From a virus, in IMG/VR virus record IMGVR_UViG_3300044631_002183, positions 64,948 to 128,947 of that record: DNA of 64,000 bases. The stretch is one strand, 5' to 3'. Within the stretch, counting starts at the first letter, position 1, and every line of letters starts with the position of its first letter. Below, piece after piece: positions 27,034-61,161 of this stretch. Under the pieces are notes generated by a model that saw nothing but the letters and a program-made list of their open reading frames with translations, was not told where the DNA came from and did not search any database. The position numbers were made by a program, and so were the translations under genes.

Positions 27034-27762
27034 TTATTTAGATCCTGTTCTATATGCTACTCTTTGATAGCTTCTATCTGCCGCGTTAAACATAAATTTA
27101 TCAAGCCCCGGATTTGTAGTACCTAAACTAAAATAGGCGTTAGATCCTGATCCGAATGTGATGTAAGCATTGCTTCCAACATACGCAATTGTTCTAGCTG
27201 TGCCGAAAAAAGTAGTTGAAGTTATTGGAACATTTACAAAGCTGTCGTCTACGCTTCCATTTTGTAAACTTGTCCAACCGCTTGGAGGCCAAGTTCCTGT
27301 AGAAGAGGCCCCCAACGATGGAGCTGTTGATCCGGATGCGCTTAACGCTCCATTTATATATTGATAGCTAGAATAAAATGTAGTAGCAGTTATCGCAGCA
27401 TTCCAAACATAAGTAGTATTCGCTGTTGGCGAGAATGAGACTCCAGATCCTGTGGCGCTATAATGCCCAGATATTCCTCCAGTATTTGCCCAGTTCCCCA
27501 ACCTCAACTCTACTTGCCCATTTACAAACAAATAGATTTCATAAATACAATTACTTGCCCCCGGCGTTCCGCTTGTAGAAGATCCGCCCTCGAATCTTAT
27601 TTGGGTAAAGTTGACGGCAGATCCCCCTCCAGTACCCCCAGTACCTCCGGTTCCTCCAGTGCCTCCTGTTCCGCTTGATCCGCTTGATCCACTTGTGCCA
27701 AAATTTGGATTAATATATGGCAATCCCCAAGAGTTTGTTAATCCAGATCCTATAAAAATCAT
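27034..27762 (-). CDS. fibre-associated protein with short GSS/GGT repeat and beta-rich domain
   Basis: N-terminal GTSGSSGSSGTGGTGGT matches the adjacent giant fibre repeat. Confidence 0.65.
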   Translation of the reverse strand: MIFIGSGLTNSWGLPYINPNFGTSGSSGSSGTGGTGGTGGTGGTGGGSAVNFTQIRFEGGSSTSGTPGASNCIYEIYLFVNGQVELRLGNWANTGGISGHYSATGSGVSFSPTANTTYVWNAAITATTFYSSYQYINGALSASGSTAPSLGASSTGTWPPSGWTSLQNGSVDDSFVNVPITSTTFFGTARTIAYVGSNAYITFGSGSNAYFSLGTTNPGLDKFMFNAADRSYQRVAYRTGSK

Positions 27763-30700
27763 ATAGTAAATCCTGTGCTATCTAAGTTTTGAGCTATTAT
27801 AGATCCAAACCATCCGCTATTATAACTAATAGAAGTGAAAGCAAAAACATCGCATCTTCCATTCACATTAGTTAATGTAGGATTTATACCTCCGGGCCAG
27901 TATATTCCAGATCCTGTCCAAGCAATCGCATTACTTCCAAGATATTTAATTACTGCTATTACAGTTTCAGCATTTCCTGTAGCCGATCCTCTACTGGAAA
28001 ATGATACAGAAGTAGCGCTAACGCCACTATTCATTTGCACAACAAAAACATTTCCGTAGTTCAAATCAAATGGTATAGCTCCATTAGCAGCAAGAATATA
28101 AGATGTTCCTTTGCCCATTATAGATCCAGCTACTCCTAATTTATTACCATTAAATGTTAGATTCGCTTCACCATTTAATCCTGAACCAGTAGCTGTAACA
28201 ACATAGTTGTCTACGTTGTTTGTTATAGTAGCTCCAGCTCCTTGAGACCCAGTGGAGCCTAATCCGCCAGTGCCACCAGTTCCCCCTGTTCCTCCTGTTC
28301 CCCCTTGCGAGCCTTGAATGCCTTGAGATCCGGTAGACCCCAAGCCGCCGGTTCCTCCAGTGCCACCTGTGCCTCCTGTGCCTCCTTGAGAACCAGTAAC
28401 TCCAATGAGCCCTGCTGGACCCACTCTTCTAGCAGTAGATATGACTGTATTTTGTGCGGCGTTCCCAGTGTATCCAACATTTGTTAAAGTAACTGAAGTA
28501 GTGCTACTCCAAGAATTAATTGAAAAGTATCCAGCGTTTTCTATATATATAATTTGACTTACTTGCATCCAGTCAGTATTTCCTACGCTCACTACAACAG
28601 TTGAGGAAACCGCTGGCATGGTAAATGCCGCCGTAGTTGTAGTAAACGCGTTTCGGCCAGCAGACCCAGTAGAGCCTATAGATCCTGTAGAACCAATTCC
28701 ACCAGTTCCGCCTGTTCCGCCTGTTCCGCCTTGAGATCCTTGTATGCCTTGAGATCCAGTCGAACCTATTCCTCCAGTGCCTCCTGTTCCACCTTGAGAA
28801 CCTTGGATACCTTGAGATCCAGTTGAACCTATCCCGCCAGTACCTCCGGTCCCACCAGTTCCACCTGTGGCTCCAGTAGAACCAATGCCTCCAGTGCCTC
28901 CTGTAGCGCCAGCAGACCCGGCGCTTCCAGACTCACCCATTGGCCCGAAAGCTACGTTTGTTAATCCCAATGTAGAAGATATAGTATAAAAACTTGCATC
29001 TAAATATAAAGGACTTCCTACAGCTCTTGAAACTGTCCTTTGAACTACTCCATCTTTCCAATATCTTATATTAAATCCATCATAAGTTATAGAACATACT
29101 GTACTTGTTGTATAAGAACCGGATTGACCAATATCTGATCCATTTTCATAAATTCTTAACGTTCCATCTCCGACAAAATACCAAGCATAGTCAATACTAG
29201 TATATGAAGCATCTAATGTTGGATCAGTGTTTAATCCAATCATTACATATACTCCAGTAGTATTAGATCGCATTGAGCAGTAAACACCTCTAGTATAACT
29301 TTGAGTGGAATAAAGGTGTCCATCCCAAGTATTTGCATTTCCAGAAGCTTTTACAAATGACGTGCTATCTGCTCCATAAGTAACTCCTCCACCAAAATTA
29401 GGAGTCCAATCCGAAGCGCCTCTTGCTCCTGTTCCGCCAGTACCGCCTGTGCCTCCTTGAGATCCTGTAGACCCTATTCCTCCAGTGCCGCCAGTGCCTC
29501 CTTGAGACCCTGTAGATCCTATTCCTCCAGTGCCACCAGTGCCTCCTTGAGACCCTGTAGATCCTATTCCTCCAGTGCCACCAGTGCCTCCTTGAGACCC
29601 TGTAGAGCCAATCCCACCAGTGCCACCAGTGCCGCCTGTGCCTCCTTGCGACCCTTGAATTCCTTGAGACCCAGTTGATCCAATACCACCAGTTCCGCCG
29701 GTTCCTCCAGTGCCACCTGTCCCGCCTTGAGAGCCCATTGAACCAGAAGTCCCAGAGCTTCCAGAGCTTGAAGCATTTATTTTTGTTCTTACTTGCCCAT
29801 CTGCTTCTATAACCAGAACGTTGTTGCTAGTTCCAGTCGATATTCCAGTGAATCTAATATTTCCACTTACATCTAACTTATATTGAGGATTTGGCTGGCC
29901 TATTCCAACCTTGTTGCCGCTAATAGTAAAATCTCCGCTATTAAATTGTCCGGCTTTAATTGTATTATTAGCAAATACTTCAAATACTGGTAAACCAGCA
30001 ATAGTATTTACAGACATCAAAGAATCAGAAAGATCATCTATAATAGAAAATAATCCACCATTTGTCCCATCTGCTCTTATTAATGTATCCCCAGATACAG
30101 CAGAAACCGCATGTATTTTTCCAGATGGTGTGGTTGTTCCTACTCCAAGATTTCCAGCATTAAACCATTGATTTGTTGTGTCAAATTGTAATCTATTAGC
30201 AGAGCTATAATTAAAAGACAATAAACCATCACCAGCATTATTTGTTAATACGAAAGACCTTGTCGCATTTGATATAGCAAATTGAGGGGCGCTCGCGGCA
30301 TAAGCTGTTAATAACCAACTTGGGCTAGTTGTACCTATTCCAATATTAGTTCCATTATCATATATGTTAGAATTTGTTAAAGTTGTTGCAGAATTAAATT
30401 TAGCGACATATCCAGATGAGCCAGACAAGCTTGCGCTAGATCCTTGAGACCCAATTCCGCCAGTTCCTCCTGTCCCGCCGGTTCCGCCGGTTCCGCCAGT
30501 GCCGCCCTGAAATCCTTGTATTCCTTGTGAACCTGTGGAGCCTATTCCTCCAGTACCACCTGTTCCTCCAGTTCCTCCCTGAGAACCAGTTGATCCTCTT
30601 GAACCAACAGAACCTAGAGACCCGAAAGAACCTTGAATACCTTGAGACCCAGTTGACCCAATGCCCCCTGTCCCACCTGTACCGCCTGTCCCTCCAGTTC

Positions 30701-33700
30701 CGCCAGTAGAACCAGATGTACCAGACGATCCCGAAGTTCCTGAAGAGCCGCTTGTTCCAGAAGACCCACCCGATCCGGAAGTACCAGAGCTTCCAGAAGA
30801 ACCAGAGGAGCCAGAGGAGCCGCTGCTGCCAGCTTCACCCATAGGCCCGAATGCTACATTTGTTATTCCTTGAGAATTCGCAGAATAAAAACTAGAATCA
30901 AAATAAAGAGCATTTCCAAGTCCTCTAGCAACAGTTCTTTGTATTACCCCATCTTTCCAGTATCTTACATTGGCTCCATCATAAGTAATTGCTAAAACTG
31001 TGCTTGCAGTATAAGCTATTCCAGTAAGTACCGCAACATTGTTTTCCCATATCGATAAATTATTATCTAAATACCAAGCATAATCCAATGAAGTATACGA
31101 AGCGTCTCCAGTGGGATCAGAATTCAAACTAAACATCGCAATAACATTAGTGCTTGTTGCTTTTGCTGTGCAGTATACGCCTCTTACATATCCTTGAGTA
31201 GAGTAAACTTGACTATCCCAAGCATTAGCTCCTGAAGTTTTTAAGAAAGTCGAACTATCTGCTCCATATACAACTCCTTGAAAGTTAGGAGTCCAATCTG
31301 AAGCTCCTCTAGCACCAGTTCCACCTGTTCCGCCAGTGCCACCAGTGCTACCAATAGATCCTGTAGACCCTATTCCACCTGTGCCACCAGTTCCTCCTGT
31401 TCCTCCAGTAGAACCTGAGCTGCCAGAAGTTCCCGCAGAACCAGAAGTGCCAGAGCTTCCAGCAGAGCCAGAAGTCCCTGAAGATCCACTAGTTCCAGAT
31501 GAACCACCTGATCCAGATGTGCCAGATGATCCGCTAGTTCCAGAAGAACCTCCTGACCCTGATGTTCCACTAGAACCAGAAGAGCCTGATGACCCACCAG
31601 ACCCTGAAGTTCCTGATGTTCCGCTTGTTCCAGAAGAACCTCCAGATCCAGAAGTCCCACTTGATCCAGAAGTTCCTGATGACCCACCGGAACCTGAAGT
31701 CCCAGAAGACCCACTGCTTCCTGAAGTGCCAGAAGACCCAGATGTTCCACTTGAACCACTTGTTCCACTGACTATTCCCAATGTTGTCTGCGCAAATGAA
31801 TAGTGTGTTGTACCTTCTGTTACAAATGTTATACTATTTGATTGATTGTCTGTATTTGTTGCACGAACTTTAACAAGTATTTTGTCTGTTAAATTTAATG
31901 AATAACCCGATTGATATGTATCGGAGTTCACCATTGATGGTGTGGGAGAATTACTTGTTACCGCAACAGGATCTGTTGTAAATAATAAAGTTTCAACTCC
32001 CCCAGAAGATCTTTTATAAACTTCACAAAATATATTAAATGAAGCGTTAGCATCTTGTTTATATGCATGTAAGAAAAATGCCCAAATACCCGCTGGTATC
32101 GCTGTTACATTGGGTAGATTTGTAGCTGTTAAATATGATTGAATAGTTTCTGTGACGCCACTTGCAATCGTAGCAGATACACTTTGTTCTGCTGCTGCGC
32201 TTGGAGTTATAGAAAATTCCTTGTATGGCGTTTGTGTTACAGATTCATTAAAGTAATAGACAGCGCCTCCTGATACGCCATCTATGCCGCTTGATCCAGA
32301 AGACCCGCTAGATCCAGATGAACCAGAAGTCCCTGAAGATCCACTAGTTCCAGATGAACCACCTGATCCAGATGTACCAGATGATCCGCTAGTTCCAGAA
32401 GAACCTCCTGACCCTGATGTTCCACTAGAACCAGAAGTGCCTGATGACCCACCAGACCCTGAAGTTCCTGATGTTCCGCTTGTTCCAGAAGAACCCCCAG
32501 AGCCAGATGTACCAGAGCTTCCTGATGTTCCAGATGTACCAGATGAACCGCCAGACCCCGAAGTTCCAGAAGACCCAGAGCTTCCGCTGGTGCCAGAAGA
32601 TCCATCGCCACCGCTTGCGCCGTCTAAGTTTATTAACCAGCTAGAATAAGTTCCAGATCCTACAGTTCTTATTGGTGCGCCAAAAGATAAATCTCCAGTT
32701 GCAGCATTATAAGAGATAACTTCGCACTCTTGGAAATTAGATCCATTATATACAACAATAATAGATTGAGCAACGCTATAACCATAATTAGGTCCAATAT
32801 TTAAAGTACCAGCATTTCCTAAAGTAAATGAAGTTTCTGAAGTTGCTCTATATTTATCTCCACTAGATCCAGAGCTTCCGCTTGTGCCAGAAGCGCCGCT
32901 TGAACCAGATGTTCCTGATGATCCGCCAGAACCAGAAGTCCCAGAGCTTCCTGAGCTTCCGCTTGAGCCAGAAGTTCCAGAGGAGCCTCCTGACCCACTA
33001 GTTCCAGAAGACCCAGAGGTTCCAGATGAACCAGATGTCCCGCTAGTTCCAGAACTTCCTCCAGAACCTGATGTTCCAGAAGAGCCAGATGTTCCGCTAG
33101 TTCCATCTATTCCAGATGTTCCACTAGTACCCGATGTCCCGCTAGTTCCAGAAGAACCACTTGTTCCACTAGATCCACTGGTTCCAGATGAGCCACCAGA
33201 GCCAGAAGTCCCAGAGCTTCCTGAGCTTCCGCTTGAGCCAGAAGTTCCAGAGGAGCCTCCTGATCCACTAGTTCCAGAAGATCCTGAAGTCCCAGAAGTG
33301 CCACTTGTACCAGAAGTTCCGCTTGTGCCAGAGGAACCTCCAGAACCTGATGTTCCAGAAGATCCTGAAGTGCCTGAAGAACCACCAGATCCAGAAGTTC
33401 CAGATGAACCAGATGTTCCGCTAGTTCCATCTATACCAGAAGTGCCACTTGTACCAGAAGTTCCGCTTGTACCAGAAGATCCACTAGAACCAGAAGTTCC
33501 CGAAGTGCCAGAAGAGCCTCCAGAGCCTGATGTTCCTGATGATCCGCCAGATCCAGAAGTACCAGATGATCCAGACGTCCCAGAAGTTCCTGAAGATCCT
33601 CCAGAACCTGATGTTCCAGATGATCCAGAAGTTCCAGATGACCCAGATGTTCCTGAAGACCCAGAGGTTCCAGAAGATCCATCTGCGCCGCAAAGAACCC

Positions 33701-34640
33701 AAGAAACAGCATAAGTGCTATTTAGTTCTATATTTCCATGGCCAGCTAAGAAATTTAAATTTACAGCCCAAGTATCATCTCCATTACGAATAACACTAGC
33801 AACAAAAAGCTCTACTCTATTATGAATATCTGCCGTGTTTACTAATTGGAATATTGCTTTCTCGTATCTTAATTCAACCCAAGTTCTTAATCCTTCAAAC
33901 CAAGAGTCTAATAAACTTCCGCCAGAATCATATTCATTAAATATAGCAGAAGTAATAGAAGACAAAGATCCATTTCCAGCAACTACTTTAAATTCACCAT
34001 TTGCTAAAACTGCATTATTTGTTAGTAAATATCTGTAAGTATTAGCTCCGTCCACTCCTGAAGAGCCAGAAGTGCCAGAAGACCCTGATGAGCCTGAAGT
34101 TCCCGATGTGCCTGAAGATCCTCCAGAACCACTTGTCCCAGAAGTCCCCGAAGTTCCTGAAGTGCCGCTTGTTCCAGATGTACCACTTGTGCCAGACGAT
34201 CCTCCTGATCCAGAAGTGCCAGAAGATCCCGAGGTTCCAGAAGACCCTCCTGATCCAGAAGTTCCGCTTGTTCCTGAAGATCCGCTTGATCCAGATGTTC
34301 CAGAAGATCCAGATGTGCCAGATGTTCCACTTGTACCAGACGAACCACCTGACCCAGAAGTTCCCGACGATCCTCCAGACCCAGATGTTCCAGATGAGCC
34401 GCTTGTACCAGAAGACCCGCCAGATCCTGAAGTGCCAGAGCTTCCACTAGAGCCAGAAGATCCGCCTGAACCAGAAGTGCCTGAGCTTCCAGATGAACCA
34501 GAAGTTCCAGAAGTGCCAGATGATCCAGCAGGACCGGGCAACCCAGCGCTTACAACTATAGCGCTTTCTATATCGCTTGGCGGAGCTGTAACTTCTACGT
34601 TAATTGATGGCTTTGGATTTACTATTACTATGTCTGGCAT
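27759..34640 (-). CDS. giant Gly-X-Y (Ser/Thr-rich) collagen-like tail fibre protein, 2293 aa
   Basis: Long (GTS/GSS/GSG/GGT)n tracts with Gly every third residue, interleaved globular domains, GNIGIGTTSP-type motifs, C-terminal WPGG..PTLT...DVF fibre domain. Confidence 0.85.
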   Translation of the reverse strand: MPDIVIVNPKPSINVEVTAPPSDIESAIVVSAGLPGPAGSSGTSGTSGSSGSSGTSGSGGSSGSSGSSGTSGSGGSSGTSGSSGTSGSGGSSGTSGSGGSSGTSGTSGTSGSSGTSGSSGSSGTSGTSGSGGSSGTSGSSGTSGSGGSSGTSGTSGTSGTSGTSGTSGTSGSGGSSGTSGTSGSSGSSGTSGSSGVDGANTYRYLLTNNAVLANGEFKVVAGNGSLSSITSAIFNEYDSGGSLLDSWFEGLRTWVELRYEKAIFQLVNTADIHNRVELFVASVIRNGDDTWAVNLNFLAGHGNIELNSTYAVSWVLCGADGSSGTSGSSGTSGSSGTSGSSGTSGSGGSSGTSGTSGSSGTSGSGGSSGTSGSGGSSGTSGTSGSSGSSGTSGTSGTSGTSGIDGTSGTSGSSGTSGSGGSSGTSGSSGTSGSGGSSGTSGTSGTSGTSGTSGSSGTSGSGGSSGTSGSSGSSGSSGTSGSGGSSGTSGSSGTSGSSGTSGTSGTSGTSGIDGTSGTSGSSGTSGSGGSSGTSGTSGSSGTSGSSGTSGSGGSSGTSGSSGSSGSSGTSGSGGSSGTSGSSGASGTSGSSGSSGDKYRATSETSFTLGNAGTLNIGPNYGYSVAQSIIVVYNGSNFQECEVISYNAATGDLSFGAPIRTVGSGTYSSWLINLDGASGGDGSSGTSGSSGSSGTSGSGGSSGTSGTSGSSGTSGSGGSSGTSGTSGTSGSGGSSGTSGSSGTSGSGGSSGTSGSSGTSGSGGSSGTSGSSGTSGSSGSSGSSGSSGIDGVSGGAVYYFNESVTQTPYKEFSITPSAAAEQSVSATIASGVTETIQSYLTATNLPNVTAIPAGIWAFFLHAYKQDANASFNIFCEVYKRSSGGVETLLFTTDPVAVTSNSPTPSMVNSDTYQSGYSLNLTDKILVKVRATNTDNQSNSITFVTEGTTHYSFAQTTLGIVSGTSGSSGTSGSSGTSGSSGSSGTSGSGGSSGTSGSSGTSGSGGSSGTSGTSGTSGSGGSSGSSGSSGTSGSGGSSGTSGSSGTSGSGGSSGTSGSSGTSGSAGSSGTSGSAGTSGSSGSTGGTGGTGGTGGIGSTGSIGSTGGTGGTGGTGARGASDWTPNFQGVVYGADSSTFLKTSGANAWDSQVYSTQGYVRGVYCTAKATSTNVIAMFSLNSDPTGDASYTSLDYAWYLDNNLSIWENNVAVLTGIAYTASTVLAITYDGANVRYWKDGVIQRTVARGLGNALYFDSSFYSANSQGITNVAFGPMGEAGSSGSSGSSGSSGSSGTSGSGGSSGTSGSSGTSGSSGTSGSTGGTGGTGGTGGTGGIGSTGSQGIQGSFGSLGSVGSRGSTGSQGGTGGTGGTGGIGSTGSQGIQGFQGGTGGTGGTGGTGGTGGIGSQGSSASLSGSSGYVAKFNSATTLTNSNIYDNGTNIGIGTTSPSWLLTAYAASAPQFAISNATRSFVLTNNAGDGLLSFNYSSANRLQFDTTNQWFNAGNLGVGTTTPSGKIHAVSAVSGDTLIRADGTNGGLFSIIDDLSDSLMSVNTIAGLPVFEVFANNTIKAGQFNSGDFTISGNKVGIGQPNPQYKLDVSGNIRFTGISTGTSNNVLVIEADGQVRTKINASSSGSSGTSGSMGSQGGTGGTGGTGGTGGIGSTGSQGIQGSQGGTGGTGGTGGIGSTGSQGGTGGTGGIGSTGSQGGTGGTGGIGSTGSQGGTGGTGGIGSTGSQGGTGGTGGTGARGASDWTPNFGGGVTYGADSTSFVKASGNANTWDGHLYSTQSYTRGVYCSMRSNTTGVYVMIGLNTDPTLDASYTSIDYAWYFVGDGTLRIYENGSDIGQSGSYTTSTVCSITYDGFNIRYWKDGVVQRTVSRAVGSPLYLDASFYTISSTLGLTNVAFGPMGESGSAGSAGATGGTGGIGSTGATGGTGGTGGTGGIGSTGSQGIQGSQGGTGGTGGIGSTGSQGIQGSQGGTGGTGGTGGIGSTGSIGSTGSAGRNAFTTTTAAFTMPAVSSTVVVSVGNTDWMQVSQIIYIENAGYFSINSWSSTTSVTLTNVGYTGNAAQNTVISTARRVGPAGLIGVTGSQGGTGGTGGTGGTGGLGSTGSQGIQGSQGGTGGTGGTGGTGGLGSTGSQGAGATITNNVDNYVVTATGSGLNGEANLTFNGNKLGVAGSIMGKGTSYILAANGAIPFDLNYGNVFVVQMNSGVSATSVSFSSRGSATGNAETVIAVIKYLGSNAIAWTGSGIYWPGGINPTLTNVNGRCDVFAFTSISYNSGWFGSIIAQNLDSTGFTI
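29452..29610. repeat. 45 nt tandem repeat (about 3.5 copies) within the fibre gene
   Basis: Unit CCTCCTTGAGACCCTGTAGATCCTATTCCTCCAGTGCCACCAGTG, encoding GGIGSTGSQGGTGGT. Confidence 0.8.
31459..32495. repeat. near-identical ~170 nt direct repeats at ~31470-31640 and ~32323-32495
   Basis: Shared CCAGAAGTCCCTGAAGATCCACTAGTTCCAGATGAACCACCTGATCCAGATGT...CCGCTTGTTCCAGAAGAACC including synonymous positions. Confidence 0.75.
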
Positions 34641-54497: not shown

Positions 54498-55388
54498 ATG
54501 CGACTGGGGCTTTGCTGCATTTCTCTGCGTCTTCAAGAAGAGGGCCATAAATTCCAAACGATGACTTTCTCTAGGTTTTCTGCGCTTCCGCGCCAGCAAG
54601 CCTTAGAAGTTCTTTCGGCTCGTATTCTGAATAATTTTCTTGTCACCGAGAAGGTTATTCGCTACTGCAAGGCAAGCGGATTCAGTAGCTACAGGCTTTC
54701 TTCTGATCTTACCCCAGTCATCAACCACCCCTCAGTCGATGTCAAGCTTCAAGACTTGCCTAATGCTGCGGCCATCTTTGAGTCCTTGTCTTCCATCGCT
54801 AAAGCCGTCAAGGAGACGGGATTAAAAATCTCAGCGCATCCTTCGGAATACATTAGCTTGACTAGCCCCAAGGAAGAGGTCATTGCCAACAGCACCAGAG
54901 ATCTTGCTTCTCACGCTGAATTGTTCGACCTCATCGGACTTCCTCAGTCTTACGAGGCTCCTCTTAACATCCATTGCCGCCAAGACGGCGATCCAGAAGC
55001 TATTTCTTCTTCCTTCCTTAAAAACTTTGACAAACTGCCAGATAATGTTAAGAATAGGTTGGTACTAGAAGTCAATGACAACAAAGAAGGAATTTGGAGC
55101 ATCGCTAATCTCCACAAGTTTTATTATCAGAGAGCTAACATTCCTGTTACTTTTGATAACTTGCATCATTCCTTTTGTCATCATAATGTTCCTGAGCGTG
55201 AAGCTATGGACATGGCTTATGAGACTTGGAAAACAACTCCTGTATTCCATTATAGCGAAGGCATCGAAGGTTCTAGGAAACACGCCGATTACGCAACCGG
55301 ACTTCCTAGGGCCTATAGTTCAGATATTTTTTGGGATGTTGAATTAAAAGGCAAAGATCTTGCGATCCTCAAAATGTTGAATAAATAA
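54498..55388 (+). CDS. uvsE: UV damage endonuclease (UVDE)
   Basis: RLGLCC, YRLSS, SAHP, NIH, RLVLE.ND, TFD.LHH, FHYSE, RKHAD, E.KGKD.A. Confidence 0.93.
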   Translation: MRLGLCCISLRLQEEGHKFQTMTFSRFSALPRQQALEVLSARILNNFLVTEKVIRYCKASGFSSYRLSSDLTPVINHPSVDVKLQDLPNAAAIFESLSSIAKAVKETGLKISAHPSEYISLTSPKEEVIANSTRDLASHAELFDLIGLPQSYEAPLNIHCRQDGDPEAISSSFLKNFDKLPDNVKNRLVLEVNDNKEGIWSIANLHKFYYQRANIPVTFDNLHHSFCHHNVPEREAMDMAYETWKTTPVFHYSEGIEGSRKHADYATGLPRAYSSDIFWDVELKGKDLAILKMLNK

Positions 55389-56315: not shown

Positions 56316-56638
56316 AAAAGATAGAAAAAGCATTCACAAGCAAGAACTACAACCACAAGCAAATCCACAGAGAAGGTGATTTTGCTATTTATGAGAGGTA
56401 TTATGATGCTACTCCAGAAAAGAAGCATTATGAAGTAATAAAAATTCAATCCCATAATGGTTATGCTATTGGTGGGCAGATGTACCCTGCTAGTGAATTT
56501 TATCCTAGTTCAAATGCTTGGGGCACAGATGGATACACTTGCCTTGACAAAGAAAGTGCTTATAAAAAATTGGATAAAATGATGCAAGACCATAAAATAA
56601 GAGAAGAAGAAAAGAAGAAGAAAGAAAAGAAAAAGTAA
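56312..56638 (+). CDS. conserved phage hypothetical protein
   Basis: HYEV..I, E.YPSS..WG motif; start refined to 56312. Confidence 0.65.
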   Translation: MKKIEKAFTSKNYNHKQIHREGDFAIYERYYDATPEKKHYEVIKIQSHNGYAIGGQMYPASEFYPSSNAWGTDGYTCLDKESAYKKLDKMMQDHKIREEEKKKKEKKK

Positions 56639-56644
56639 GTTATT

Positions 56645-56718
56645 GCGAGTATAGCTTAGTGGTAAAGTCCGAGTTTTCCAAACTTGCTAGGAGGGTTCGA
56701 TTCCCTCTACTCGCTCCA
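56645..56718 (+). tRNA. tRNA-Gly(TCC)
   Basis: Cloverleaf, anticodon loop TTTCCAA, GGTTCGATTCC, CCA end. Confidence 0.93.
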
Positions 56719-56720
56719 AC

Positions 56721-56794
56721 TGGGGATTTGCATAATGGTAGTGCAGGAGTCTTTGAAGCTCTTTGTAGGGGTTCGATTCCCTTATCCCCTGCCA
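56721..56794 (+). tRNA. tRNA-Gln(TTG)
   Basis: Anticodon loop CTTTGAA, T arm, CCA end. Confidence 0.92.
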
Positions 56795-56799
56795 TTTTT

Positions 56800-56934
56800 A
56801 TGAAGATTTATAATATTGCAATTTTATCGACTGTCGCGGCTGGCCTAATTGTTTCATTTTTTTATGGCATGCTGGCTGGGGTAGTTGTTAATTTGGCTTT
56901 GTTTTTAATTGTAGAAAAATTTTTACCAGAATAA
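56800..56934 (+). CDS. small membrane protein (44 aa)
   Basis: Two hydrophobic segments; ATG right after tRNA-Gln. Confidence 0.55.
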   Translation: MKIYNIAILSTVAAGLIVSFFYGMLAGVVVNLALFLIVEKFLPE

Positions 56935-56938
56935 TAAC

Positions 56939-57361
56939 ATGAAAGCGCAAATCCAATTCATCACTAACTCAGAAAACTATTACGACTCTCCACTCTTGGA
57001 AGTTTATGTCCCAAGCAAAACTGCTCTAAAAAAATTCCTAGAAACTTTTAAACCCAAACACCGCGATCCTGCCGAGGTTATGGTTGATTTTATTATATTT
57101 GCTCACTCTGCAATTAAAACAGTTGCTATCAGAAACTTAGAAGACCGAGACTATTCACAGGATCTTATTGCAGTTGAAGTAAGATCTCCAAATATTGTAG
57201 AGTTTGTTTATAAGAAAGACGATGGCAAGACAGACTGGCGTAAAGTAGACATTCTTGAAGAGGATAAGTATTATGTCAAAGGCCATGACCTTAATGACGA
57301 TAATAGTTTTAAATGCTTCAAGAAGAGTAATATTGTTGGCGGAAGAATTATTAAACAGTAA
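56939..57361 (+). CDS. protein with C-terminal WYL-like domain
   Basis: VEFVYKKDDG..DWRKV...YYVKG.D...FKCFKKSNI. Confidence 0.55.
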   Translation: MKAQIQFITNSENYYDSPLLEVYVPSKTALKKFLETFKPKHRDPAEVMVDFIIFAHSAIKTVAIRNLEDRDYSQDLIAVEVRSPNIVEFVYKKDDGKTDWRKVDILEEDKYYVKGHDLNDDNSFKCFKKSNIVGGRIIKQ

Positions 57362-57367
57362 TTTCGG

Positions 57368-57442
57368 GCCTCCAAAGCATACAAGGGGATGCAGGGGTTT
57401 TGTAAACCTCAGAGTTCAGTTCAAGTCTGAATGGAGGCTCCA
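57368..57442 (+). tRNA. tRNA-Thr(TGT)
   Basis: Acceptor GCCTCCA/TGGAGGC, anticodon loop TTTGTAA, CCA end. Confidence 0.85.
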
Positions 57443-57843
57443 TTTTCATCAAGTTTAATTAAATTTGCGTGTATTTCTGTGTGGCAATTTGCACAGACTA
57501 ACACGCATTTTTTTATTTCTGCTTCTATTTCTTCTTTGGGATAGCCATTAGAGATTGCGTCTGATACTGCAAATTTTTTTGTTTTAGGATCTATATGGTG
57601 AAAATGTAAAGCATTTTGGCATTTATCATATCCACAAAACTGACATTTCGCGCCAGAGCTATCTTTATATTCTTTTTTTAAACGGAAGCGATTTTTATTT
57701 TTTCTTTCGGAATTTTTAGTTTTTCCTTCTGGATTTAAATAATAAGAGATTAAACTCCTAGAGCATTTTATTTCTGCTTGGATTTGTCGGTAAGACTTGC
57801 CTTGAGATCTAAGTTGTTTAATTTTTTCGCCCTTTTCTTCCAT
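57421..57843 (-). CDS. HTH + HNH endonuclease (free-standing)
   Basis: N-terminal HTH (GKSYRQIQ), CQFCGY..C..ALHFHH.DP, CVLVCANCH.E.H. Confidence 0.88.
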   Translation of the reverse strand: MEEKGEKIKQLRSQGKSYRQIQAEIKCSRSLISYYLNPEGKTKNSERKNKNRFRLKKEYKDSSGAKCQFCGYDKCQNALHFHHIDPKTKKFAVSDAISNGYPKEEIEAEIKKCVLVCANCHTEIHANLIKLDENGASIQT

Positions 57844-57897
57844 TTGTTTATTATATTTGAAAAGATGAGCCTCTCAAAAAAATTTTTCCTCTTGCCC

Positions 57898-57926
57898 TTG
57901 ACTTTCTGAAAATCCAGTCCATAGTG
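57898..57926 (+). promoter_or_regulatory. sigma70-like promoter for the tRNA/ncRNA block
   Basis: TTGACT...CATAGT followed by a hairpin and boxA-like TGTTCTTTAA. Confidence 0.55.
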
Positions 57927-58021
57927 TAGACGTTGGAAGTGCAGTGGGTTGGAAAAAATCCGATGAAATTGCACTTGTTCTTTAAAATGCGTTCGTAGCT
58001 CAACGGTAGAGCAGCAGCCTT

Positions 58022-58687
58022 AGGTAATAAGAGCGTTCATATAGAAATATATGAAATGAATCAAGCCGTATGCGGGAAACCCCTTAGAGCTTAAACTACT
58101 TGAAAAAGTAAAAATGTTTAAGATTGGGCAATCCGCAGGAAACTAAAAGATTAGTAATCTGCTAGTTTATGTGTATAATATAATATATGATAACACATAG
58201 CAAACAGAAAGGTAATCTTGGATTCTCTGCTACTTTAAAAGAGATACATAAACTTGGATATAATGTCTTTTCTGAAATTGGCGACTATTCTAAAATAGAT
58301 ATGATAGTCGAATATAATAGTAGGTTAATAAAAATTCAAGTTAAGTATGCTAAAGAAAAAAATGGAATTGCTGCACTTTCTTTAAGGAAATCTGGTCCTA
58401 ATGGATATAGATACCTTTACAAGGTTAGCGACATTGATATTTTTAGCGTGTATCTTCCTGATCAAGATAAGGTGCTTTTTATTCCAGCTAAATTAGCTTG
58501 CAAAAATAAAAATTCCTTTGTTATCAGGTATAAAGAAAGCAAGAATCTTCAAAAGTTTAAAGTTCATCATATAAATGAATTTTTAGATTTAGATAGGATC
58601 CTCAGAGACTTTACGCTTGACATCTGTAATGATGATGATAAAGTCCAGACCACAACGGAAACGGTCAGCGAAAGCTGAAGTGGTAAG
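58022..58687 (+). mobile_element. group I intron
   Basis: P/Q TGCGGGAAA...AATCCGCAG, R CAGAGACTTT, S GATAAAGTCC, exon-terminal U, intron-terminal G, GAAA-capped 3' hairpins. Confidence 0.88.
58187..58678 (+). CDS. intron-encoded PD-(D/E)XK homing endonuclease
   Basis: KQKG, IDMIV, KIQVKY, DIDIFSVY; lies inside the intron. Confidence 0.85.
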   Translation: MITHSKQKGNLGFSATLKEIHKLGYNVFSEIGDYSKIDMIVEYNSRLIKIQVKYAKEKNGIAALSLRKSGPNGYRYLYKVSDIDIFSVYLPDQDKVLFIPAKLACKNKNSFVIRYKESKNLQKFKVHHINEFLDLDRILRDFTLDICNDDDKVQTTTETVSES

Positions 58688-58916
58688 TTAAGCTGTTGGT
58701 TGTGGATTCGAATTCCACCGGACGCACCAATTTTTTCAGTTCTTTTAAATTTTGAGCGGCGGAGTCAATTATGTCTAATGTGTGTTAGATGTAATTAAGG
58801 AAATAGTTTCCTTCCCGCTCAATTAATTTGAGTAAAGAAGTAGAATTTATCTTAGAGCGATATAGGGTAAAATTCGAAGTAATTGGAATTACACTTTACT
58901 CTTTTTGTTCTTTAGT

Positions 58917-58993
58917 GGGCCAGTAGCTCAATTGGTTAGAGCAGGGAACTCATAATTCCTTGGTTATCGGTTCAAGTCCGGTTTGGCCCACCA
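58917..58993 (+). tRNA. tRNA with CAT anticodon (Ile2 or elongator Met)
   Basis: GGGCCAG/TTGGCCC, loop CTCATAA, paired 1:72 so not initiator. Confidence 0.9.
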
Positions 58994-59067
58994 ATTTACG
59001 CCCGGAGAATATCCGATAAATAGGCACCTTTGATTAAAAATCTCAGGACCGGCGAAAAGTTTTTGAT

Positions 59068-59147
59068 GGTCCTATAGCTCAATATTTGGTTAGAGCGTTC
59101 TCTTTATAAGGGAGGGGTTGCGAGTTCAAGTCTCGCTGGGACCACCA
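59068..59147 (+). tRNA. tRNA-Ile(TAT)
   Basis: GGTCCTA/TGGGACC, loop TTTATAA, CCA end. Confidence 0.88.
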
Positions 59148-59166
59148 AAATTTTTAATATGTTCTT

Positions 59167-59829
59167 TTACAATTTCGAATTAATTATATTCACTATAATA
59201 TCTAAGTATTTTTGAGCCTTGTCTGGTTTAAAATAATTAAGACTAGATGTATCAATAATACATAATTCGATGCCTTGCTCTAAACAAGCTTGAAATTTGC
59301 GACGATCATTGTTTTGAGTTTGATTTAATTTATCTACTCCATAGATCGGTTCGTAATGGAAAATGCCATTAAGTTCAAAAGCAAGTTTTAATTTAGGAAT
59401 ATAAATATCTAGCTCAGAATTGATTGTATCTTTGCGATTAAAATGAAATTCTAAATCTGGGTATTTGGTTGGCAGCACTTGTTCAAAGTATATCTCTAAT
59501 TTAGATCTTCTGCATCCATGAGTTTTATGGGTATTATTATAAGTCGCAGCGCATGAAGAGGAGCAAAAAGATACAGGACTTTTAACTAATTGGCATCTCT
59601 TTTTTAAAAATATTTTATTACATTGTTTACATATCACTTCTTTTTTTTTATCTTGCGCTTTGCGGCTACAAGCATTAGAGCAAAAATGATTCTTGCAAGA
59701 GCGCAGTTTTAAATTAGATTTTATATATTTCTGCATTTTCTGAAAATTTTGTTGGCAATAGTCGCACTTGACAGGTATCATATCAGAATATTTAGAAGAT
59801 AACATTTGTTCTATTGAAATTAAAAGCAT
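59167..59829 (-). CDS. zinc-finger + PD-(D/E)XK/Vsr-like endonuclease (free-standing)
   Basis: CDYC, FCS..C, CKQC repeats; SKLE, ELDIYIP, AFELNGIFHY, D..K...C. Confidence 0.82.
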   Translation of the reverse strand: MLLISIEQMLSSKYSDMIPVKCDYCQQNFQKMQKYIKSNLKLRSCKNHFCSNACSRKAQDKKKEVICKQCNKIFLKKRCQLVKSPVSFCSSSCAATYNNTHKTHGCRRSKLEIYFEQVLPTKYPDLEFHFNRKDTINSELDIYIPKLKLAFELNGIFHYEPIYGVDKLNQTQNNDRRKFQACLEQGIELCIIDTSSLNYFKPDKAQKYLDIIVNIINSKL

Positions 59830-59924
59830 ATAATATAGTATACACTAGTAAACTCGAAAATTCAAATTCCAATTTTTTCCCTTGACAAATTTCAAGGCAG
59901 AGCCATATTGAAGTGTTCTTTAAT

Positions 59925-60006
59925 CCCGCTGTGGTGGAATGTATACACAACGCTCTTAAAAAGCGTCGCCTTTTGGATTGCGAGGTCGAACTCGCCAGCG
60001 GGACCA
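59925..60006 (+). tRNA. tRNA-Leu(TAA), atypical D and T loops
   Basis: CCCGCTG/CAGCGGG-A-CCA, loop CTTAAAA, long variable arm; TTGACA promoter at 59882. Confidence 0.82.
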
Positions 60007-60156
60007 CTTTTTGTTCTTTTACATTTTCTTTTCCAAGACGGCCCACCCGGCTTCCAAGAGCTAACCCATGATAACAGAAGCTTGGAGAATCTGTTACGGA
60101 CGGGGTTCTGAGGAAAAGTTACAGCTTAGGAGTCATGACTTAAGCTGTATAAATTT

Positions 60157-60241
60157 TACTAAGTAAGTGTCTTGATCAGACGTATGGTAAAGTGCCTGAA
60201 GAGGGCATGATGCGGGTTCAAGTCCCCTAACTTACTTAGTA
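60157..60241 (+). ncRNA. tRNA-like RNA with a long terminal stem
   Basis: 12 bp TACTAAGTAAGT/ACTTACTTAGTA, T arm GGG-TTCAAGT-CCC, TGGTAAA, no CCA. Confidence 0.6.
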
Positions 60242-60555
60242 TTTAATTTGCAGCAATGAGGGCAGTCGTCACTAAGACGTAGCTTGGGGTAACTGGAAAT
60301 ATCCGGTATATCAAGCAATTGAGCGACCTGATCTGCAAAAAACATACAGTGCGCCCAAGCGATCTTGTTTTGAGTCGCTTTACACTGAGTCAACAATGGG
60401 CAATGATTTTATTCGATGTCAGCAAGCTCACAAATGCTGAAGATATGTTAATTGCAATAAGATGTTTTTGGAGAGTGAGTGGGTTGATTTATACTAGTTT
60501 AGATCGTAATTATCTTTGTCGAATCCCTTAAACCAACATCGAATAATACTTTTTT

Positions 60556-61161
60556 ATGTCAAAAACAAACAACGTAAGAGTAGTAATCGCTCATTACAAT
60601 GAAGATGTTTCTTGGGTTAATAATCTACAGTTCCCGTTCCAAATAATATCTAAAAAAACAATACCCGAAAACACTGCCCCCAATAAAGGACATGAGGTTT
60701 CTTGTTACTTAGAATTTATAGTCAAAAATTATGATTCTTTGCCAGAAATTTGTGTCTTTTTGCATGGCCATAGATGTTCTTGGCATAATGTAGATGTTGA
60801 TAATTATTTGAATGACGAAGAGGTTTTCTCTTACGATTACTATAATATTAATTTAATTGCATCTCCTCGCAATGGAGAGTCTTTATGGGTTTTGCATGAA
60901 GAAGTTGTGCCTTTTCTTCAAAGAAACAAACATATAATCGAAAAAGAAATAAATCTTTCAATAAATCCATTAGATATCAAATATAGGCCAGCCAGTTGTT
61001 TTTATGTTAAGAAAGAAGCTGTATTGAAGCATGGCCTACAATCCTACAAAAATTGGCTAGAATGGATTATGACTACAGAAGAACCTTCTGGCATTTCAAG
61101 TAGAGTTTTTGAATATTGCTGGCATATAATATTTACAGGAAATCATATTGACAGATATTAA
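60556..61161 (+). CDS. DUF3431 family protein
   Basis: VIAHYNED.SW, NKGHE...YL.FI..NYD.LP, FLHGH, FEYCWHIIF. Confidence 0.8.
   Translation: MSKTNNVRVVIAHYNEDVSWVNNLQFPFQIISKKTIPENTAPNKGHEVSCYLEFIVKNYDSLPEICVFLHGHRCSWHNVDVDNYLNDEEVFSYDYYNINLIASPRNGESLWVLHEEVVPFLQRNKHIIEKEINLSINPLDIKYRPASCFYVKKEAVLKHGLQSYKNWLEWIMTTEEPSGISSRVFEYCWHIIFTGNHIDRY

What the first reader, a model, noticed from the sequence alone, without database searches (positions are those of the whole stretch)
58752..60546. Array of about 9 unrelated stem-closed small RNAs interleaved with tRNAs
Seen: spacers between tRNAs are filled with discrete units whose ends pair: 58752-58822 (TTGAGCGG/CCGCTCAA), 58830-58901 (GAGTAAAG/CTTTACTC), 58999-59054 (CGCC/GGCG), 60028-60118 (CTTTTCC/GGAAAAG), 60120-60149, 60157-60241, 60247-60339 (TTTGCAG/CTGCAAA), 60353-60401, 60409-60546 (TTATTCGATGT/ACATCGAATAA). 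Most carry internal hairpins and are separated by short A/T linkers like those flanking the tRNAs. No credible ORF covers them. Inference: a polycistronic ncRNA cassette processed with the tRNAs, possibly decoys for host defence nucleases, protein sponges or ribozymes.
Basis: partly seen in the sequence, partly recalled or inferred. Interest (0 to 1): 0.82.

Follow-up and report, generated by a model that had tools for sequence, protein, structure and literature searches.

The report
Folded RNA modules in phage tRNA operon
Between the tRNA genes of this uncultured lake phage lie six kinds of small, conserved, tightly folded non-coding RNAs that match no catalogued RNA family and whose job is still unknown.

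Summary
The observation largely holds. The window carries a same-strand RNA island: tRNA-Lys (with an intron), Met, Ile and Leu, with folded non-coding modules between them.

Eight of the nine flagged units have relatives in related uncultured freshwater phage contigs. Their helices are kept through matched mutations.
- 60247-60401: 16 of 43 pairs changed on both sides, 98.8% of cells paired.
- 60028-60149: 19 of 40 pairs.
- 60409-60546: 9 of 38 pairs.
- 58752-58822, 58830-58901 and 60157-60241: 3-4 pairs each, on few sequences.
- 58999-59054 has no homolog and is unsupported.

Nine units reduce to six modules, because 60028-60118 always travels with 60120-60149, and 60247-60339 with 60353-60401. 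Modules are shuffled between relatives, so this is not one large RNA.

Rfam finds only tRNAs. The knot at 60347-60401 has HDV-ribozyme topology, but many members lack the catalytic cytosine.

Two hairpin loops hold six-letter palindromes that change yet stay palindromic, which suggests self-pairing. A strand-specific GTTCTTT motif, boxA-like, punctuates the island.

Function is untested. The closest analogues are T4 RNA C/D and ROOL/GOLLD. This scan noted the same families earlier on other DNA.

The parts
57898..57925 (+). sigma-70-like promoter candidate ahead of the tRNA-Lys part of the island
   Evidence: TTGACT-16-CATAGT, 9 of 12. This is a consensus match only.
57977..57987 (+). GTTCTTTAAAA spacer motif (boxA-like), 2 nt before tRNA-Lys
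   Evidence: It matches GYTCTTTAANA, the boxA consensus quoted in PMC5725501.
57989..58729 (+). tRNA-Lys(UUU) interrupted by a 666-nt intron (58022-58687) that carries a PD-(D/E)XK endonuclease ORF (58187-58678)
   Evidence: ARAGORN with introns allowed; its Arg label is an artefact; an intronless tRNA-Lys(UUU) in L001 3436-3510 fixes the junction CTT|TTAA. PF11645, E 9e-18.
58739..58749 (+). GTTCTTT spacer motif
   Evidence: In run X3, an RNA-library contig ends exactly at 58739 (record 11).
58752..58822 (+). U1: Y-shaped RNA made of a closing stem and two hairpins, with the conserved loop region UCUAAUGUGUGUUAGA
   Evidence: z -4.84; homologs in 16 loci; 11 distinct, each shown behind a tRNA 3' end (..CACCA) and a GTTCTTT spacer; in L001 that tRNA is tRNA-Lys; 4 of 21 pairs changed on both sides.
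58830..58901 (+). U2: Y-shaped RNA made of a closing stem and two hairpins
   Evidence: z -2.75; homologs in 10 loci; 5 sequences, 3 of 22 pairs changed on both sides.
58907..58914 (+). GTTCTTT spacer motif, 2 nt before tRNA-Met
58917..58993 (+). tRNA-Met(CAU)
58999..59054 (+). U3: spacer with a 4-bp end pairing; not supported as an RNA module
   Evidence: z -1.70, 13/200 shuffles fold as well; no homolog. In relatives tRNA-Met and tRNA-Ile lie 5-24 nt apart.
59068..59147 (+). tRNA-Ile(UAU)
   Evidence: Rfam, 58.9 bits. (ARAGORN -mt, anticodon tat).
59161..59171 (+). GTTCTTT spacer motif after tRNA-Ile
59167..59829 (-). HNH/homing-endonuclease-like ORF inserted in the island on the opposite strand
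   Evidence: phrog_559, E 3e-13
59882..59909 (+). sigma-70-like promoter candidate of the tRNA-Leu part of the island
   Evidence: TTGACA-16-CATATT. GTTCTTT starts 6 nt after it, as in 40 of 62 such distinct contexts in relatives.
59915..59925 (+). GTTCTTTAATC spacer motif at about the transcript start
59925..60006 (+). tRNA-Leu(UAA)
   Evidence: ARAGORN at a lowered threshold only. Homologous tRNA-Leu genes lie upstream of U7 in relatives.
60013..60023 (+). GTTCTTT spacer motif
   Evidence: A 136-nt RNA-library contig starts exactly at 60013 (record 15).
60028..60118 (+). U4: closing stem, two inner helices, and two hairpins whose loops pair with each other (UCCAAG with CUUGGA)
   Evidence: All five nested helices covary. 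The loop-loop helix was not part of the model: 86.7% paired, and 3 of 6 pairs changed on both sides.
60120..60149 (+). U5: 11-bp hairpin that always follows U4, with the 8-nt loop AGUCAUGA containing a 6-nt palindrome
   Evidence: z -4.48; helix 7, 6 of 11 pairs changed on both sides; loop types AGUCAUGA, AGUAAUUA, AGUAGCUA, GGUCAUGU.
60157..60241 (+). U6: RNA with tRNA-like features (GGTTCAAGTCC T-loop-like arm, GG-containing loop), sealed by a 12-bp stem, with no CCA and no U33
   Evidence: ARAGORN only at ps80; no Rfam tRNA match; 4 sequences, 4 of 9 closing-stem pairs changed on both sides.
60247..60339 (+). U7: closing stem, conserved internal loops and a three-way junction; the core module of the family
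   Evidence: found in 140 of 184 loci held; a large insertion replaces its long hairpin in some relatives.
60347..60401 (+). U8: probable H-type pseudoknot (CAGUG/CACUG and GCCCA/UGGGC) with an inserted hairpin and an A-rich third loop; always follows a U7
   Evidence: helices 7 and 8 covary, while helix 6 never varies, so the knot itself is inferred; 28 of 28 pattern hits lie in U7-bearing contigs.
60409..60546 (+). U9: 138-nt RNA with a 10-bp closing stem, nested helices, and a hairpin whose loop holds the palindrome UUGCAA
   Evidence: z -3.34; 9 of 38 pairs changed on both sides. Loop is UUGCAA in 14 of 15 sequences and UUCGAA in 1 of 15.

Best explanation
The stretch is the non-tRNA half of a phage 'RNA island'. 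This is a promoter-driven, one-strand operon in which tRNA genes alternate with six families of independently folding non-coding RNA modules:
- U1
- U2
- U4 with U5
- the tRNA-like U6
- U7 with U8
- U9
A strand-specific GUUCUUU(A/U)A spacer punctuates the operon.

Shown:
- The modules are real, conserved structures kept by matched mutations.
- They are exchanged as units among more than 100 related uncultured freshwater phage contigs.
- They belong to no Rfam family.

Inferred:
- The operon is transcribed as a precursor.
- Host tRNA-processing and trimming enzymes release each module. Its terminal helix plays the part of an acceptor stem and protects the ends.
- The products accumulate as stable small RNAs that act in trans by binding a conserved host or phage factor of RNA or tRNA metabolism. 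This would explain the long invariant unpaired stretches of U7/U8.
- U5 and U9 pair with themselves through palindromic loops.
- The spacer motif may load the host Nus antitermination complex onto this untranslated operon.
For: Structure:
- Covariation well above shuffled and slid controls for U7+U8, U4+U5 and U9.
- Smaller counts for U1, U2 and U6.

Modularity, over 115 distinct U7 contexts:
- Directly upstream of U7: tRNA-Leu 52, U4/U5 10, tRNA-Lys 2, U6 1, other or none 37.
- Directly downstream of U8: tRNA-Arg 17, U9 11, tRNA-Thr 2, other or none 62.

Same strand as the tRNAs, behind promoter-like sites.

Spacer motif:
- GTTCTTT occurs 516 times on the RNA strand inside the islands, against 24 times on the other strand.
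- 62 of 346 distinct contexts sit 4-7 nt after a -10-like hexamer.

Palindromic loops keep their palindromy while changing letters: UCAUGA / UAAUUA / UAGCUA in U5, and UUGCAA / UUCGAA in U9.

Expression hints:
- RNA-library contigs from three studies cover U4-U6 and U7-U8 at depths of 15-47.
- The HNH ORF region has no cover in two of those runs.
- One contig equals 60013-60148.
- An adapter lies directly behind 60399.

Precedent: T4 RNAC and RNAD are phage small RNAs 'of yet unknown functions' (PMC9697503, passages read). That they lie in the T4 tRNA region is from my recall.
Against: - No end mapping. The RNA-library evidence consists of assembled contigs, which show neither strand nor true ends and may include DNA.
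- U9 had no cover in any of the four runs. U1 had cover in one run only and U2 in none.
- No partner protein or target was identified.
- The ORF inside the array (56939-57361) gave only a weak WYL lead and a poor model.
- Only 38 of 346 motif contexts match the strict gammaproteobacterial boxA consensus, and the host is unknown.
- The U8 knot helix never varies, so it is not shown by covariation.
- The invariance of part of U7 in the large alignment is partly forced by the search pattern used.
Confidence: 0.6

Rival explanations
1. The 540 nt from 60007 to 60546 are one large ornate RNA of the ROOL/GOLLD kind, and the 'units' are its domains. It would assemble into an RNA-only multimer through kissing loops.
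For: - The stretch is contiguous, gene-free and lies directly behind a tRNA. ROOL and GOLLD are phage RNAs 'often near tRNA islands', and tRNAs sometimes sit in the GOLLD linker (PMC12286853, passages).
- There is an intramolecular loop-loop pairing in U4, and there are palindromic loops in U5 and U9.
- An RNA-library contig spans U4 through U6 (record 7).
Against: - The modules occur separately. U7-U8 lies directly behind tRNA-Leu in 52 contexts but behind U4/U5 in only 10, and U9 follows U8 in only 11.
- Each module is closed by its own terminal helix.
- GTTCTTT spacers separate modules in relatives.
- Rfam ROOL and GOLLD models give no match, even at E up to 10.
- The one cross-module pairing proposed earlier (U7 with U8) shows no covariation and only 74.8% of cells paired.
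Confidence: 0.1
2. Some modules are small self-cleaving ribozymes that cut the precursor, as the HDV-like theta ribozymes do behind phage tRNAs.
For: - U8 has the strand order of a minimal HDV-like ribozyme: P1, P2, P3 hairpin, P1', P2', with no P4. It is about 55 nt long.
- Theta ribozymes sit within 5 nt of the 3' ends of phage tRNAs (PMC10879173, section 7 read).
- U7 and U8 carry long invariant stretches, as catalytic cores do.
Against: - Many U8 members have no cytosine at all between P1' and P2', for example ...CACTGAGAAAAAAATGGGT. The catalytic cytosine in J4/2 defines the family.
- The P3 loop is 12 nt, not about 7, and I saw no P1.1 covariation.
- No ribozyme family of Rfam matched at E up to 10.
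- An RNA-library contig runs across the U7-U8 linker (record 8).
Confidence: 0.07
3. The modules work in cis, not as free RNAs. They would be spacers that guide folding, processing order or transcription (antitermination, pausing) of the tRNA precursor, and are degraded afterwards.
For: - They lie only within tRNA operons.
- The boxA-like motif is strand-specific and sits at transcript starts and between genes. BoxA is bound by NusB/E in nascent rRNA (PMC5725501, passages).
- The U5 hairpin with its T-rich tail was flagged as terminator-like.
Against: - Relatives process the same tRNAs without these modules. tRNA-Leu is followed by U7 or by other elements, and tRNA-Met and tRNA-Ile lie 5 nt apart.
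- Invariant loops and elaborate knots exceed what a spacer needs.
- RNA-library contigs over U8 and U4-U5 are as deep as or deeper than those over the tRNAs (table 2), which suits stable products. Contig depth is a poor measure, however.
Confidence: 0.13
4. The units are decayed tRNA genes or chance hairpins in AT-rich spacer DNA, with no function.
For: - U6 keeps a T-loop-like arm, and ARAGORN calls it a tRNA only at a very low threshold.
- U1 and U2 are of tRNA length (71 and 72 nt) and have 8-bp end stems.
- U3 folds no better than 13 of 200 shuffles and has no homolog.
Against: - Helices are maintained by compensatory change across up to 81 distinct sequences.
- Long invariant stretches point to selection.
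- U1, U2, U4, U7, U8 and U9 have no cloverleaf, and the Rfam tRNA model gives no match at E up to 10.
Confidence: 0.04

Closest known systems
Phage T4 small RNAs RNAC and RNAD (species 1 and 2 RNAs)
   Same: Both are phage-encoded small non-coding RNAs of unknown function that accompany phage tRNA genes. RNAC and RNAD are called 'RNAs of yet unknown functions' in PMC9697503 (passages). Their position in the T4 tRNA cluster and their co-processing with tRNAs come from my recall, not from a call.
   Different: - No sequence similarity. BLAST of the 4.4-kb island and of U7-U8 against 50,697 GenBank phage records, which I assume include T4, matched only tRNAs and an HNH gene, or nothing.
- There are six families here instead of two.
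- They show pseudoknots, loop-loop pairings, palindromic loops and modular shuffling.
ROOL and GOLLD large ornate RNAs (Rfam; cryo-EM nanocages, PMC12286853)
   Same: They are phage and prophage RNAs often found near tRNA islands, of unknown function, with complex knotted folds. Kissing loops drive their self-assembly (passages).
   Different: - No Rfam match.
- Each module here is 30-160 nt and self-contained, and modules are reshuffled, instead of forming one RNA of 580-800 nt.
- Self-assembly is inferred only from palindromic loops.
HDV-like theta ribozymes behind phage tRNAs (PMC10879173)
   Same: Both are small knotted RNAs placed in phage tRNA clusters. U8 shares the nested strand order and the lack of P4.
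   Different: - The catalytic cytosine is missing in many U8 members.
- U8 follows U7, not a tRNA 3' end.
- These are freshwater phages, not gut phages.
- No self-cleavage has been shown.
Bacterial Y-RNA-like tRNA mimics (YrlA)
   Same: U6 joins a long sealed stem to a module with a T-loop-like arm and a GG loop.
   Different: - No Rfam match at E up to 10.
- No Ro60 gene was looked for systematically.
- Only 4 sequences are known.
rrn/lambda boxA antitermination signal
   Same: GTTCTTTAAAA at 57977 fits the consensus GYTCTTTAANA (PMC5725501). The motif is strand-specific, and lies at transcript starts and before RNA genes.
   Different: - Only 38 of 346 distinct contexts fit the strict consensus.
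- There are many copies per operon.
- The host and its own boxA are unknown.
- No binding has been shown.

Membership tests
Any Rfam 15 family (4227 models) | A match to the covariance model at the gathering score, or at least at E up to 10 | tested here: not met
   - (whole window, gathering threshold): 4 matches, all tRNA.
- (56400-60800, E up to 10): nothing within any of the nine units.
- (12 relatives, 135.7 kb): 64 of 64 matches are tRNA.
HDV-like / theta ribozyme | Nested double-pseudoknot strand order P1-P2-P3-P1'-(P4)-P2' | tested here: inconclusive
   U8 has this order. P2 and P3 covary, but P1 (CAGUG/CACUG) never varies, so it cannot be judged. I did not find P1.1.
HDV-like / theta ribozyme | Catalytic cytosine at the start of J4/2 (PMC10879173, section 7) | tested here: not met
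   many members read CACTG-AGAAAAAAA-TGGGT between P1' and P2', with no C at all.
HDV-like / theta ribozyme | Self-cleavage at the 5' end of P1 | not testable with these tools
   This needs an in vitro cleavage assay. One RNA-library contig bridges the site (record 8), which is weak evidence against cleavage.
tRNA (for U6, U1, U2) | Cloverleaf recognised by the Rfam tRNA model or by ARAGORN at default settings; U33; 3' CCA or a discriminator base | tested here: not met
   - no match.
- ARAGORN calls U6 a tRNA only at ps80.
- The loop reads UGAAGAG, UGAAAAG or UAAAAAG, without U33.
- The ends are sealed by a 12-bp stem, with no CCA.
ROOL / GOLLD | A match to the family model; one RNA of 580-800 nt with a conserved multi-domain order | tested here: not met
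   No match. Domains occur separately and in different orders.
T4 RNAC/RNAD | Sequence homology to the T4 genes | tested here: not met
   no match in GenBank phages beyond tRNAs and an HNH gene.
T4 RNAC/RNAD (works-like claim) | A discrete stable RNA cut out of the tRNA precursor | tested here: inconclusive
   only contigs from RNA libraries. One contig equals 60013-60148, and an adapter lies behind 60399. No raw reads were available.
boxA / Nus antitermination site | Sequence GYTCTTTAANA on the nascent RNA upstream of structured RNA genes | tested here: inconclusive
   One of the 6 copies inside 57977-60023 fits fully and one fits 10 of 11 positions. In relatives, 38 of 346 contexts fit. The strand bias is strong.
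boxA / Nus antitermination site | Binding of NusB/NusE and resistance to Rho | not testable with these tools
   The host is unknown. The only 3 genome hits are contigs of metagenome-assembled genomes from three different phyla.

The most novel reading that the evidence does not exclude
The phage tRNA operon is a toolbox of small RNA-only building blocks. U5 and U9 dimerise through palindromic kissing loops, U4 locks itself with an internal loop-loop pairing, and U7/U8 carries an invariant docking surface. Together they would form RNA-only assemblies or sponges that capture a host tRNA-directed enzyme, such as an anticodon nuclease or a tRNA-modifying or repair factor, during infection. They would be small modular cousins of the ROOL and GOLLD nanocages, and the GUUCUUU spacers would recruit the host rRNA antitermination machinery to make them in bulk.
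Probability: 0.2. Interest if true: 0.85.

Novelty: new member of a known kind. Interest (0 to 1): 0.6.

Why it matters
Phage tRNA clusters are usually annotated as tRNAs plus 'spacer'. Here the spacer holds at least five RNA families that are under selection, knotted and uncatalogued. They are shared by more than a hundred contigs of abundant uncultured lake phages.

This adds concrete, testable members to a small and unexplained class: T4 RNA C/D, ROOL and GOLLD. It also offers simple handles for experiments, namely palindromic loops, an invariant core and a boxA-like punctuation motif.

If the modules bind host tRNA-directed defence or processing enzymes, they would be a new layer of phage-host conflict.

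Practically, covariance models of these families would improve the annotation of phage genomes. They would also prevent false ORF calls in these regions.

Tried and rejected
- Whole genome of the window: none is held.
- GenBank phages: the island matched only tRNAs and an HNH gene, and U7-U8 and ORF 56939-57361 matched nothing. A radical-SAM ORF gave only a distant Streptomyces phage hit, so the phage has no cultured close relative and its host is unknown.
- A U7-U8 long-range pairing (CUUGGG..ACUG with CAGU..CCCAAG), a lead from note e1-5645271: 74.8% of cells paired and no change on both sides. Mismatches appear wherever U7 varies. Rejected.
- U8 as a theta/HDV-like ribozyme: rejected because the catalytic C is missing.
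- A box C/D-like kink-turn reading of the U7 internal loop: the covarying pair G-C to C-G fits the plain helix register and not the kink-turn register. Dropped.
- The MAFFT alignment of U4+U5 misplaced the loop partner by one column in several rows. I rebuilt it with a covariance model. Three distinct rows, the window among them, stay one column off in the loop-loop helix, which lowers its count.
- ORF 56939-57361 as a possible RNA partner: the Atlas score for a WYL cluster was 0.84, below the level at which chance hits stop. AlphaFold gave mean pLDDT 44. No fold search was made and no claim is made.
- Genome scan for a host: 3 hits, all contigs of metagenome-assembled genomes from three different phyla. 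They give no host.
- RNA runs: all 13 listed runs hold small shares (0.05-0.15) and are kept as contigs. U9 (60401-60560) and U2 had no cover in the four runs laid. That is not evidence of absence.
- Rfam gave no group I intron match for the tRNA-Lys intron, so its class remains unverified.
Its main text describes none of them.

A claim that these families are not in print rests only on the searches and on Rfam.
Full report
WHAT IS THERE

The window is a gene-dense, AT-rich piece of phage-like DNA. GC is about 35%, the ORFs are tightly packed and overlapping, and it carries ribonucleotide reductase, sugar-modifying enzymes and homing endonucleases.

From about 56645 to 60546 the + strand carries an RNA island:
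- tRNA-Gly, tRNA-Gln and tRNA-Thr.
- A tRNA at 57989-58729 split by a 666-nt intron. An intronless relative shows it to be tRNA-Lys(UUU), with the junction CTT|TTAA.
- tRNA-Met at 58917-58993.
- tRNA-Ile(UAU) at 59068-59147.
- tRNA-Leu(UAA) at 59925-60006.

The nine units of the finding fill the gaps. I call them U1 to U9 in order. Their end pairings are all present as described.

IS IT MORE THAN CHANCE?

Single-sequence folding is suggestive for some units and not for others. z-scores range from -4.84 (U1) to -1.48 (U8). U1, U5, U6 and U9 were beaten by 0 of 200 shuffles, while U3, U4 and U8 were matched by 13-18 of 200. Because the units were chosen for their paired ends, I relied on relatives instead.

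How relatives were found:
- A neighbouring protein (60556-61161, DUF3431) led to one syntenic viral contig. It shows the same array, with visible compensatory changes.
- A 15-letter anchor from U7 gave 65 stretches in viral contigs, about 29 of them true relatives.
- A U8 pattern gave 28 stretches, all in contigs that also hold U7.
- A U7 pattern gave 113 stretches in metagenome contigs.
- Of the 184 loci then held, 140 carry U7.
- GenBank phages hold nothing similar.

THE MODULES

U7+U8 (60247-60401)

The test set is 81 distinct sequences. U7 is a closing stem, a conserved internal-loop region and a three-way junction. U8 is a hairpin flanked by GCCCA/UGGGC.

On the proposed structure 98.8% of cells are paired, and 16 of 43 pairs changed on both sides. 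Shuffles give 7.8 +/- 1.4, and 0 of 500 reach the observed value. Partners slid by 1-3 columns pair in only 29-36% of cells.

The helix CAGUG/CACUG would make U8 an H-type pseudoknot, with a one-letter first loop and an A-rich nine-letter third loop. That helix never varies, so the knot is inferred from geometry, not shown.

The long invariant stretches are TTTGCAGCAATGA, GAC.TGATCTGC, ACAGTGCGCCCAAG, TTACACTG and AATGGG. They were already invariant in the first set of 17 sequences, which was anchored on one 15-mer only. In the large set, part of this invariance is forced by my search patterns.

U4+U5 (60028-60149)

All 36 model hits, among the window and 145 loci searched, contain both parts. 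That gives 20 distinct rows.

On the proposed structure 94.7% of cells are paired, and 19 of 40 pairs changed on both sides. Shuffles give 11.2 +/- 1.8 (0/500), and slid controls pair 32-49% of cells. The alignment was fitted to the nested helices, so it leans towards them.

The loop-loop pairing UCCAAG/CUUGGA between the two inner hairpins was not in the model. It is kept through AUCAAG/CUUGAU and UCCAAA/UUUGGA, with 3 of 6 pairs changed on both sides.

U5 is an 11-bp hairpin. Its 8-letter loop reads AGUCAUGA, AGUAAUUA, AGUAGCUA or GGUCAUGU (5, 5, 4 and 6 of the 20 distinct rows). Three of these four loop types contain a perfect six-letter palindrome. The palindrome is offset from the stem axis, so it is not simply the centre of a DNA palindrome.

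U9 (60409-60546)

15 distinct sequences. 98.2% of cells are paired, and 9 of 38 pairs changed on both sides (0/500). Its best-covarying hairpin ends in a loop holding UUGCAA in 14 of 15 sequences and UUCGAA in 1 of 15. The palindromy is again kept while the letters change.

U1, U2, U6 and U3

- U1 and U2 are Y-shaped, with fewer relatives. U1 has 10 sequences aligned and 4 of 21 pairs changed on both sides. U2 has 5 sequences and 3 of 22 pairs.
- U6 has a T-loop-like arm (GGTTCAAGTCC) and a GG loop, but no U33 and no CCA, and it is sealed by a 12-bp stem. Only 4 sequences are known, and 4 of the 9 closing-stem pairs changed on both sides. Rfam's tRNA model does not match it.
- U3 has no homolog, folds no better than 13 of 200 shuffles, and is absent from relatives, where tRNA-Met and tRNA-Ile nearly touch. 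I treat it as spacer.

ONE RNA OR MANY?

Among 115 distinct U7 contexts:
- Directly upstream of U7: tRNA-Leu 52, U4/U5 10, tRNA-Lys 2, U6 1, something else or nothing 37.
- Directly downstream of U8: tRNA-Arg 17, U9 11, tRNA-Thr 2, something else 62.

In two relatives a U7 copy with a large insertion stands directly before a second U7 plus U8.

The units are therefore exchangeable modules, not domains of one fixed large RNA. The only cross-module pairing I tested fails.

PUNCTUATION

GTTCTTT(A/T) occurs six times on the + strand within 57977-60020, out of 16 matches in the whole window on both strands. Each copy lies next to an RNA gene.

In the oriented relatives it occurs 516 times on the RNA strand inside the islands (1.64 per kb) against 24 times on the other strand. 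Outside the islands the rates are 0.12 and 0.15 per kb. Overlapping loci are counted more than once; there are 346 distinct contexts.

Sixty-two of those contexts sit 4-7 letters after a -10-like hexamer of a TTGACA-type promoter. The window's own site at 59882-59925 is one of them.

The motif resembles the boxA consensus GYTCTTTAANA (PMC5725501, passages). Only 38 of 346 contexts fit the consensus strictly. I regard Nus-dependent antitermination of this untranslated operon as a reasonable but unproven reading. A processing signal is the alternative.

In run X3, two RNA-library contigs end exactly at the first G of such a motif, at 58739 and at 60013.

EXPRESSION

Thirteen RNA-type runs hold small shares of the stretch. 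I laid four, from four studies, and all four are kept as contigs.
- They cover the tRNAs, U1 (one run), U4-U6 and U7-U8.
- One 136-nt contig is exactly 60013-60148.
- One 343-nt contig covers 60021-60243.
- Short contigs with depths of 14-28 cover 60325-60399, with an Illumina adapter directly behind 60399, two letters before the predicted end of U8.
- Two runs show nothing over the opposite-strand HNH gene.

This fits stable RNAs. However, contigs show neither strand nor true ends, DNA may be present in such libraries, and holes prove nothing. I count it as a weak hint only.

COMPARISON WITH WHAT IS KNOWN

- Rfam 15 finds only tRNAs in the window and in 12 relatives (64 of 64 matches).
- U8 has the strand order of a minimal HDV-like (theta) ribozyme, a family found behind phage tRNAs (PMC10879173, section 7 read). 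Many members have no cytosine where the catalytic one must be, so U8 is not a member.
- ROOL and GOLLD share the setting and the kissing-loop theme (PMC12286853, passages), but not the sequence, size or fixed architecture.
- The nearest analogues in kind are the T4 small RNAs RNAC and RNAD, still 'of yet unknown functions' (PMC9697503, passages). Their place in the T4 tRNA cluster is from my recall.
- A 2023 catalogue of candidate structured RNAs from IMG/VR (PMC10690425, passages) may list some of these motifs in supplements that I could not open.
- Earlier notes of this scan describe the same families on other genomes, and follow-up agents reached similar conclusions. I used them as leads only.

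MECHANISM AND ODDS

- About 0.85 that these are selected, structured RNA modules transcribed with the tRNAs.
- About 0.4 that they are released as stable trans-acting RNAs that bind a conserved host or phage factor.
- About 0.5 that U5 and U9 self-pair through their palindromic loops.
- About 0.35 that the spacer acts as a boxA.
- The rivals (one large RNA, ribozymes, purely cis-acting spacers, junk) together take the rest.

VERDICT

These are new members of a known but poorly understood kind.

Noticed in passing
window 57989-58729 (intron 58022-58687; ORF 58187-58678): tRNA-Lys(UUU) is split after U34 by a 666-nt intron. The intron ends in G and encodes a PD-(D/E)XK endonuclease (PF11645, E 9e-18). 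The relative L001 3436-3510 has the same tRNA without the intron. Rfam gave no group I match, so the intron class is unverified. ARAGORN mislabels the gene as tRNA-Arg(acg).
   Followed up: partly
window 57977, 58739, 58907, 59161, 59915, 60013 (+ strand), and relatives: The motif GTTCTTT(A/T)A punctuates the RNA island. In relatives it is 20-fold more frequent on the RNA strand inside the islands than on the other strand. It often starts 4-7 nt after a -10-like hexamer and resembles boxA (GYTCTTTAANA).
   Followed up: partly
window 56939-57361 (+): A 140-aa ORF of unknown family sits inside the tRNA array, between tRNA-Gln and tRNA-Thr, and is conserved at the same place in L001. There was no Pfam, PHROG or GenBank-phage match. 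The only lead is a weak WYL hit in the Atlas (0.84), and the AlphaFold model is poor (pLDDT 44).
   Followed up: partly
window 57421-57843 (-) and 59167-59829 (-): Two HNH/homing-endonuclease-like ORFs lie on the opposite strand inside the RNA island. Together with the intron endonuclease, that makes three mobile nucleases within 2.5 kb of RNA genes.
   Followed up: no
window 57938-57976 (+): A 7-bp hairpin (AAGTGCA...TGCACTT) lies between the promoter-like site at 57898-57925 and the GTTCTTT motif before tRNA-Lys. It may be a further small leader element. It was seen by eye only.
   Followed up: no
L020 581-840, L054 3655-3915, L057 908-1105, L004 587-781, L092 323-681: In some relatives the long hairpin of U7 is replaced by an insertion of roughly 100 nt that looks structured. 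In L057 and L004 such a copy stands in tandem before a normal U7+U8.
   Followed up: partly
L064, L046, L065, L049 downstream of U8; L032 2960-3140; L006 1535-1720: Relatives carry further gene-free, apparently structured modules that are not present in the window, again framed by GTTCTTT spacers. The module repertoire of this phage clade is therefore larger than the six families seen here.
   Followed up: no
window 1-56000: There is a large block of sugar and glycan-modifying genes: GDP-mannose dehydratase, DegT aminotransferase, several glycosyltransferases, a B12-binding radical SAM enzyme and a carbamoyltransferase. There is also a 2293-aa ORF (27759-34640), a UvdE UV endonuclease (54498-55388) and a DUF3431 protein (60556-61161), a family I recall as mainly eukaryotic.
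   Followed up: no
L185, L186, L187 (genome contigs): The U7 pattern occurs in contigs binned into metagenome-assembled genomes labelled Nitrospira, Flavobacterium and Gammaproteobacteria. One is the same 138-kb contig found among the metagenome hits. These are probably phage contigs binned into bacterial genomes by mistake.
   Followed up: no
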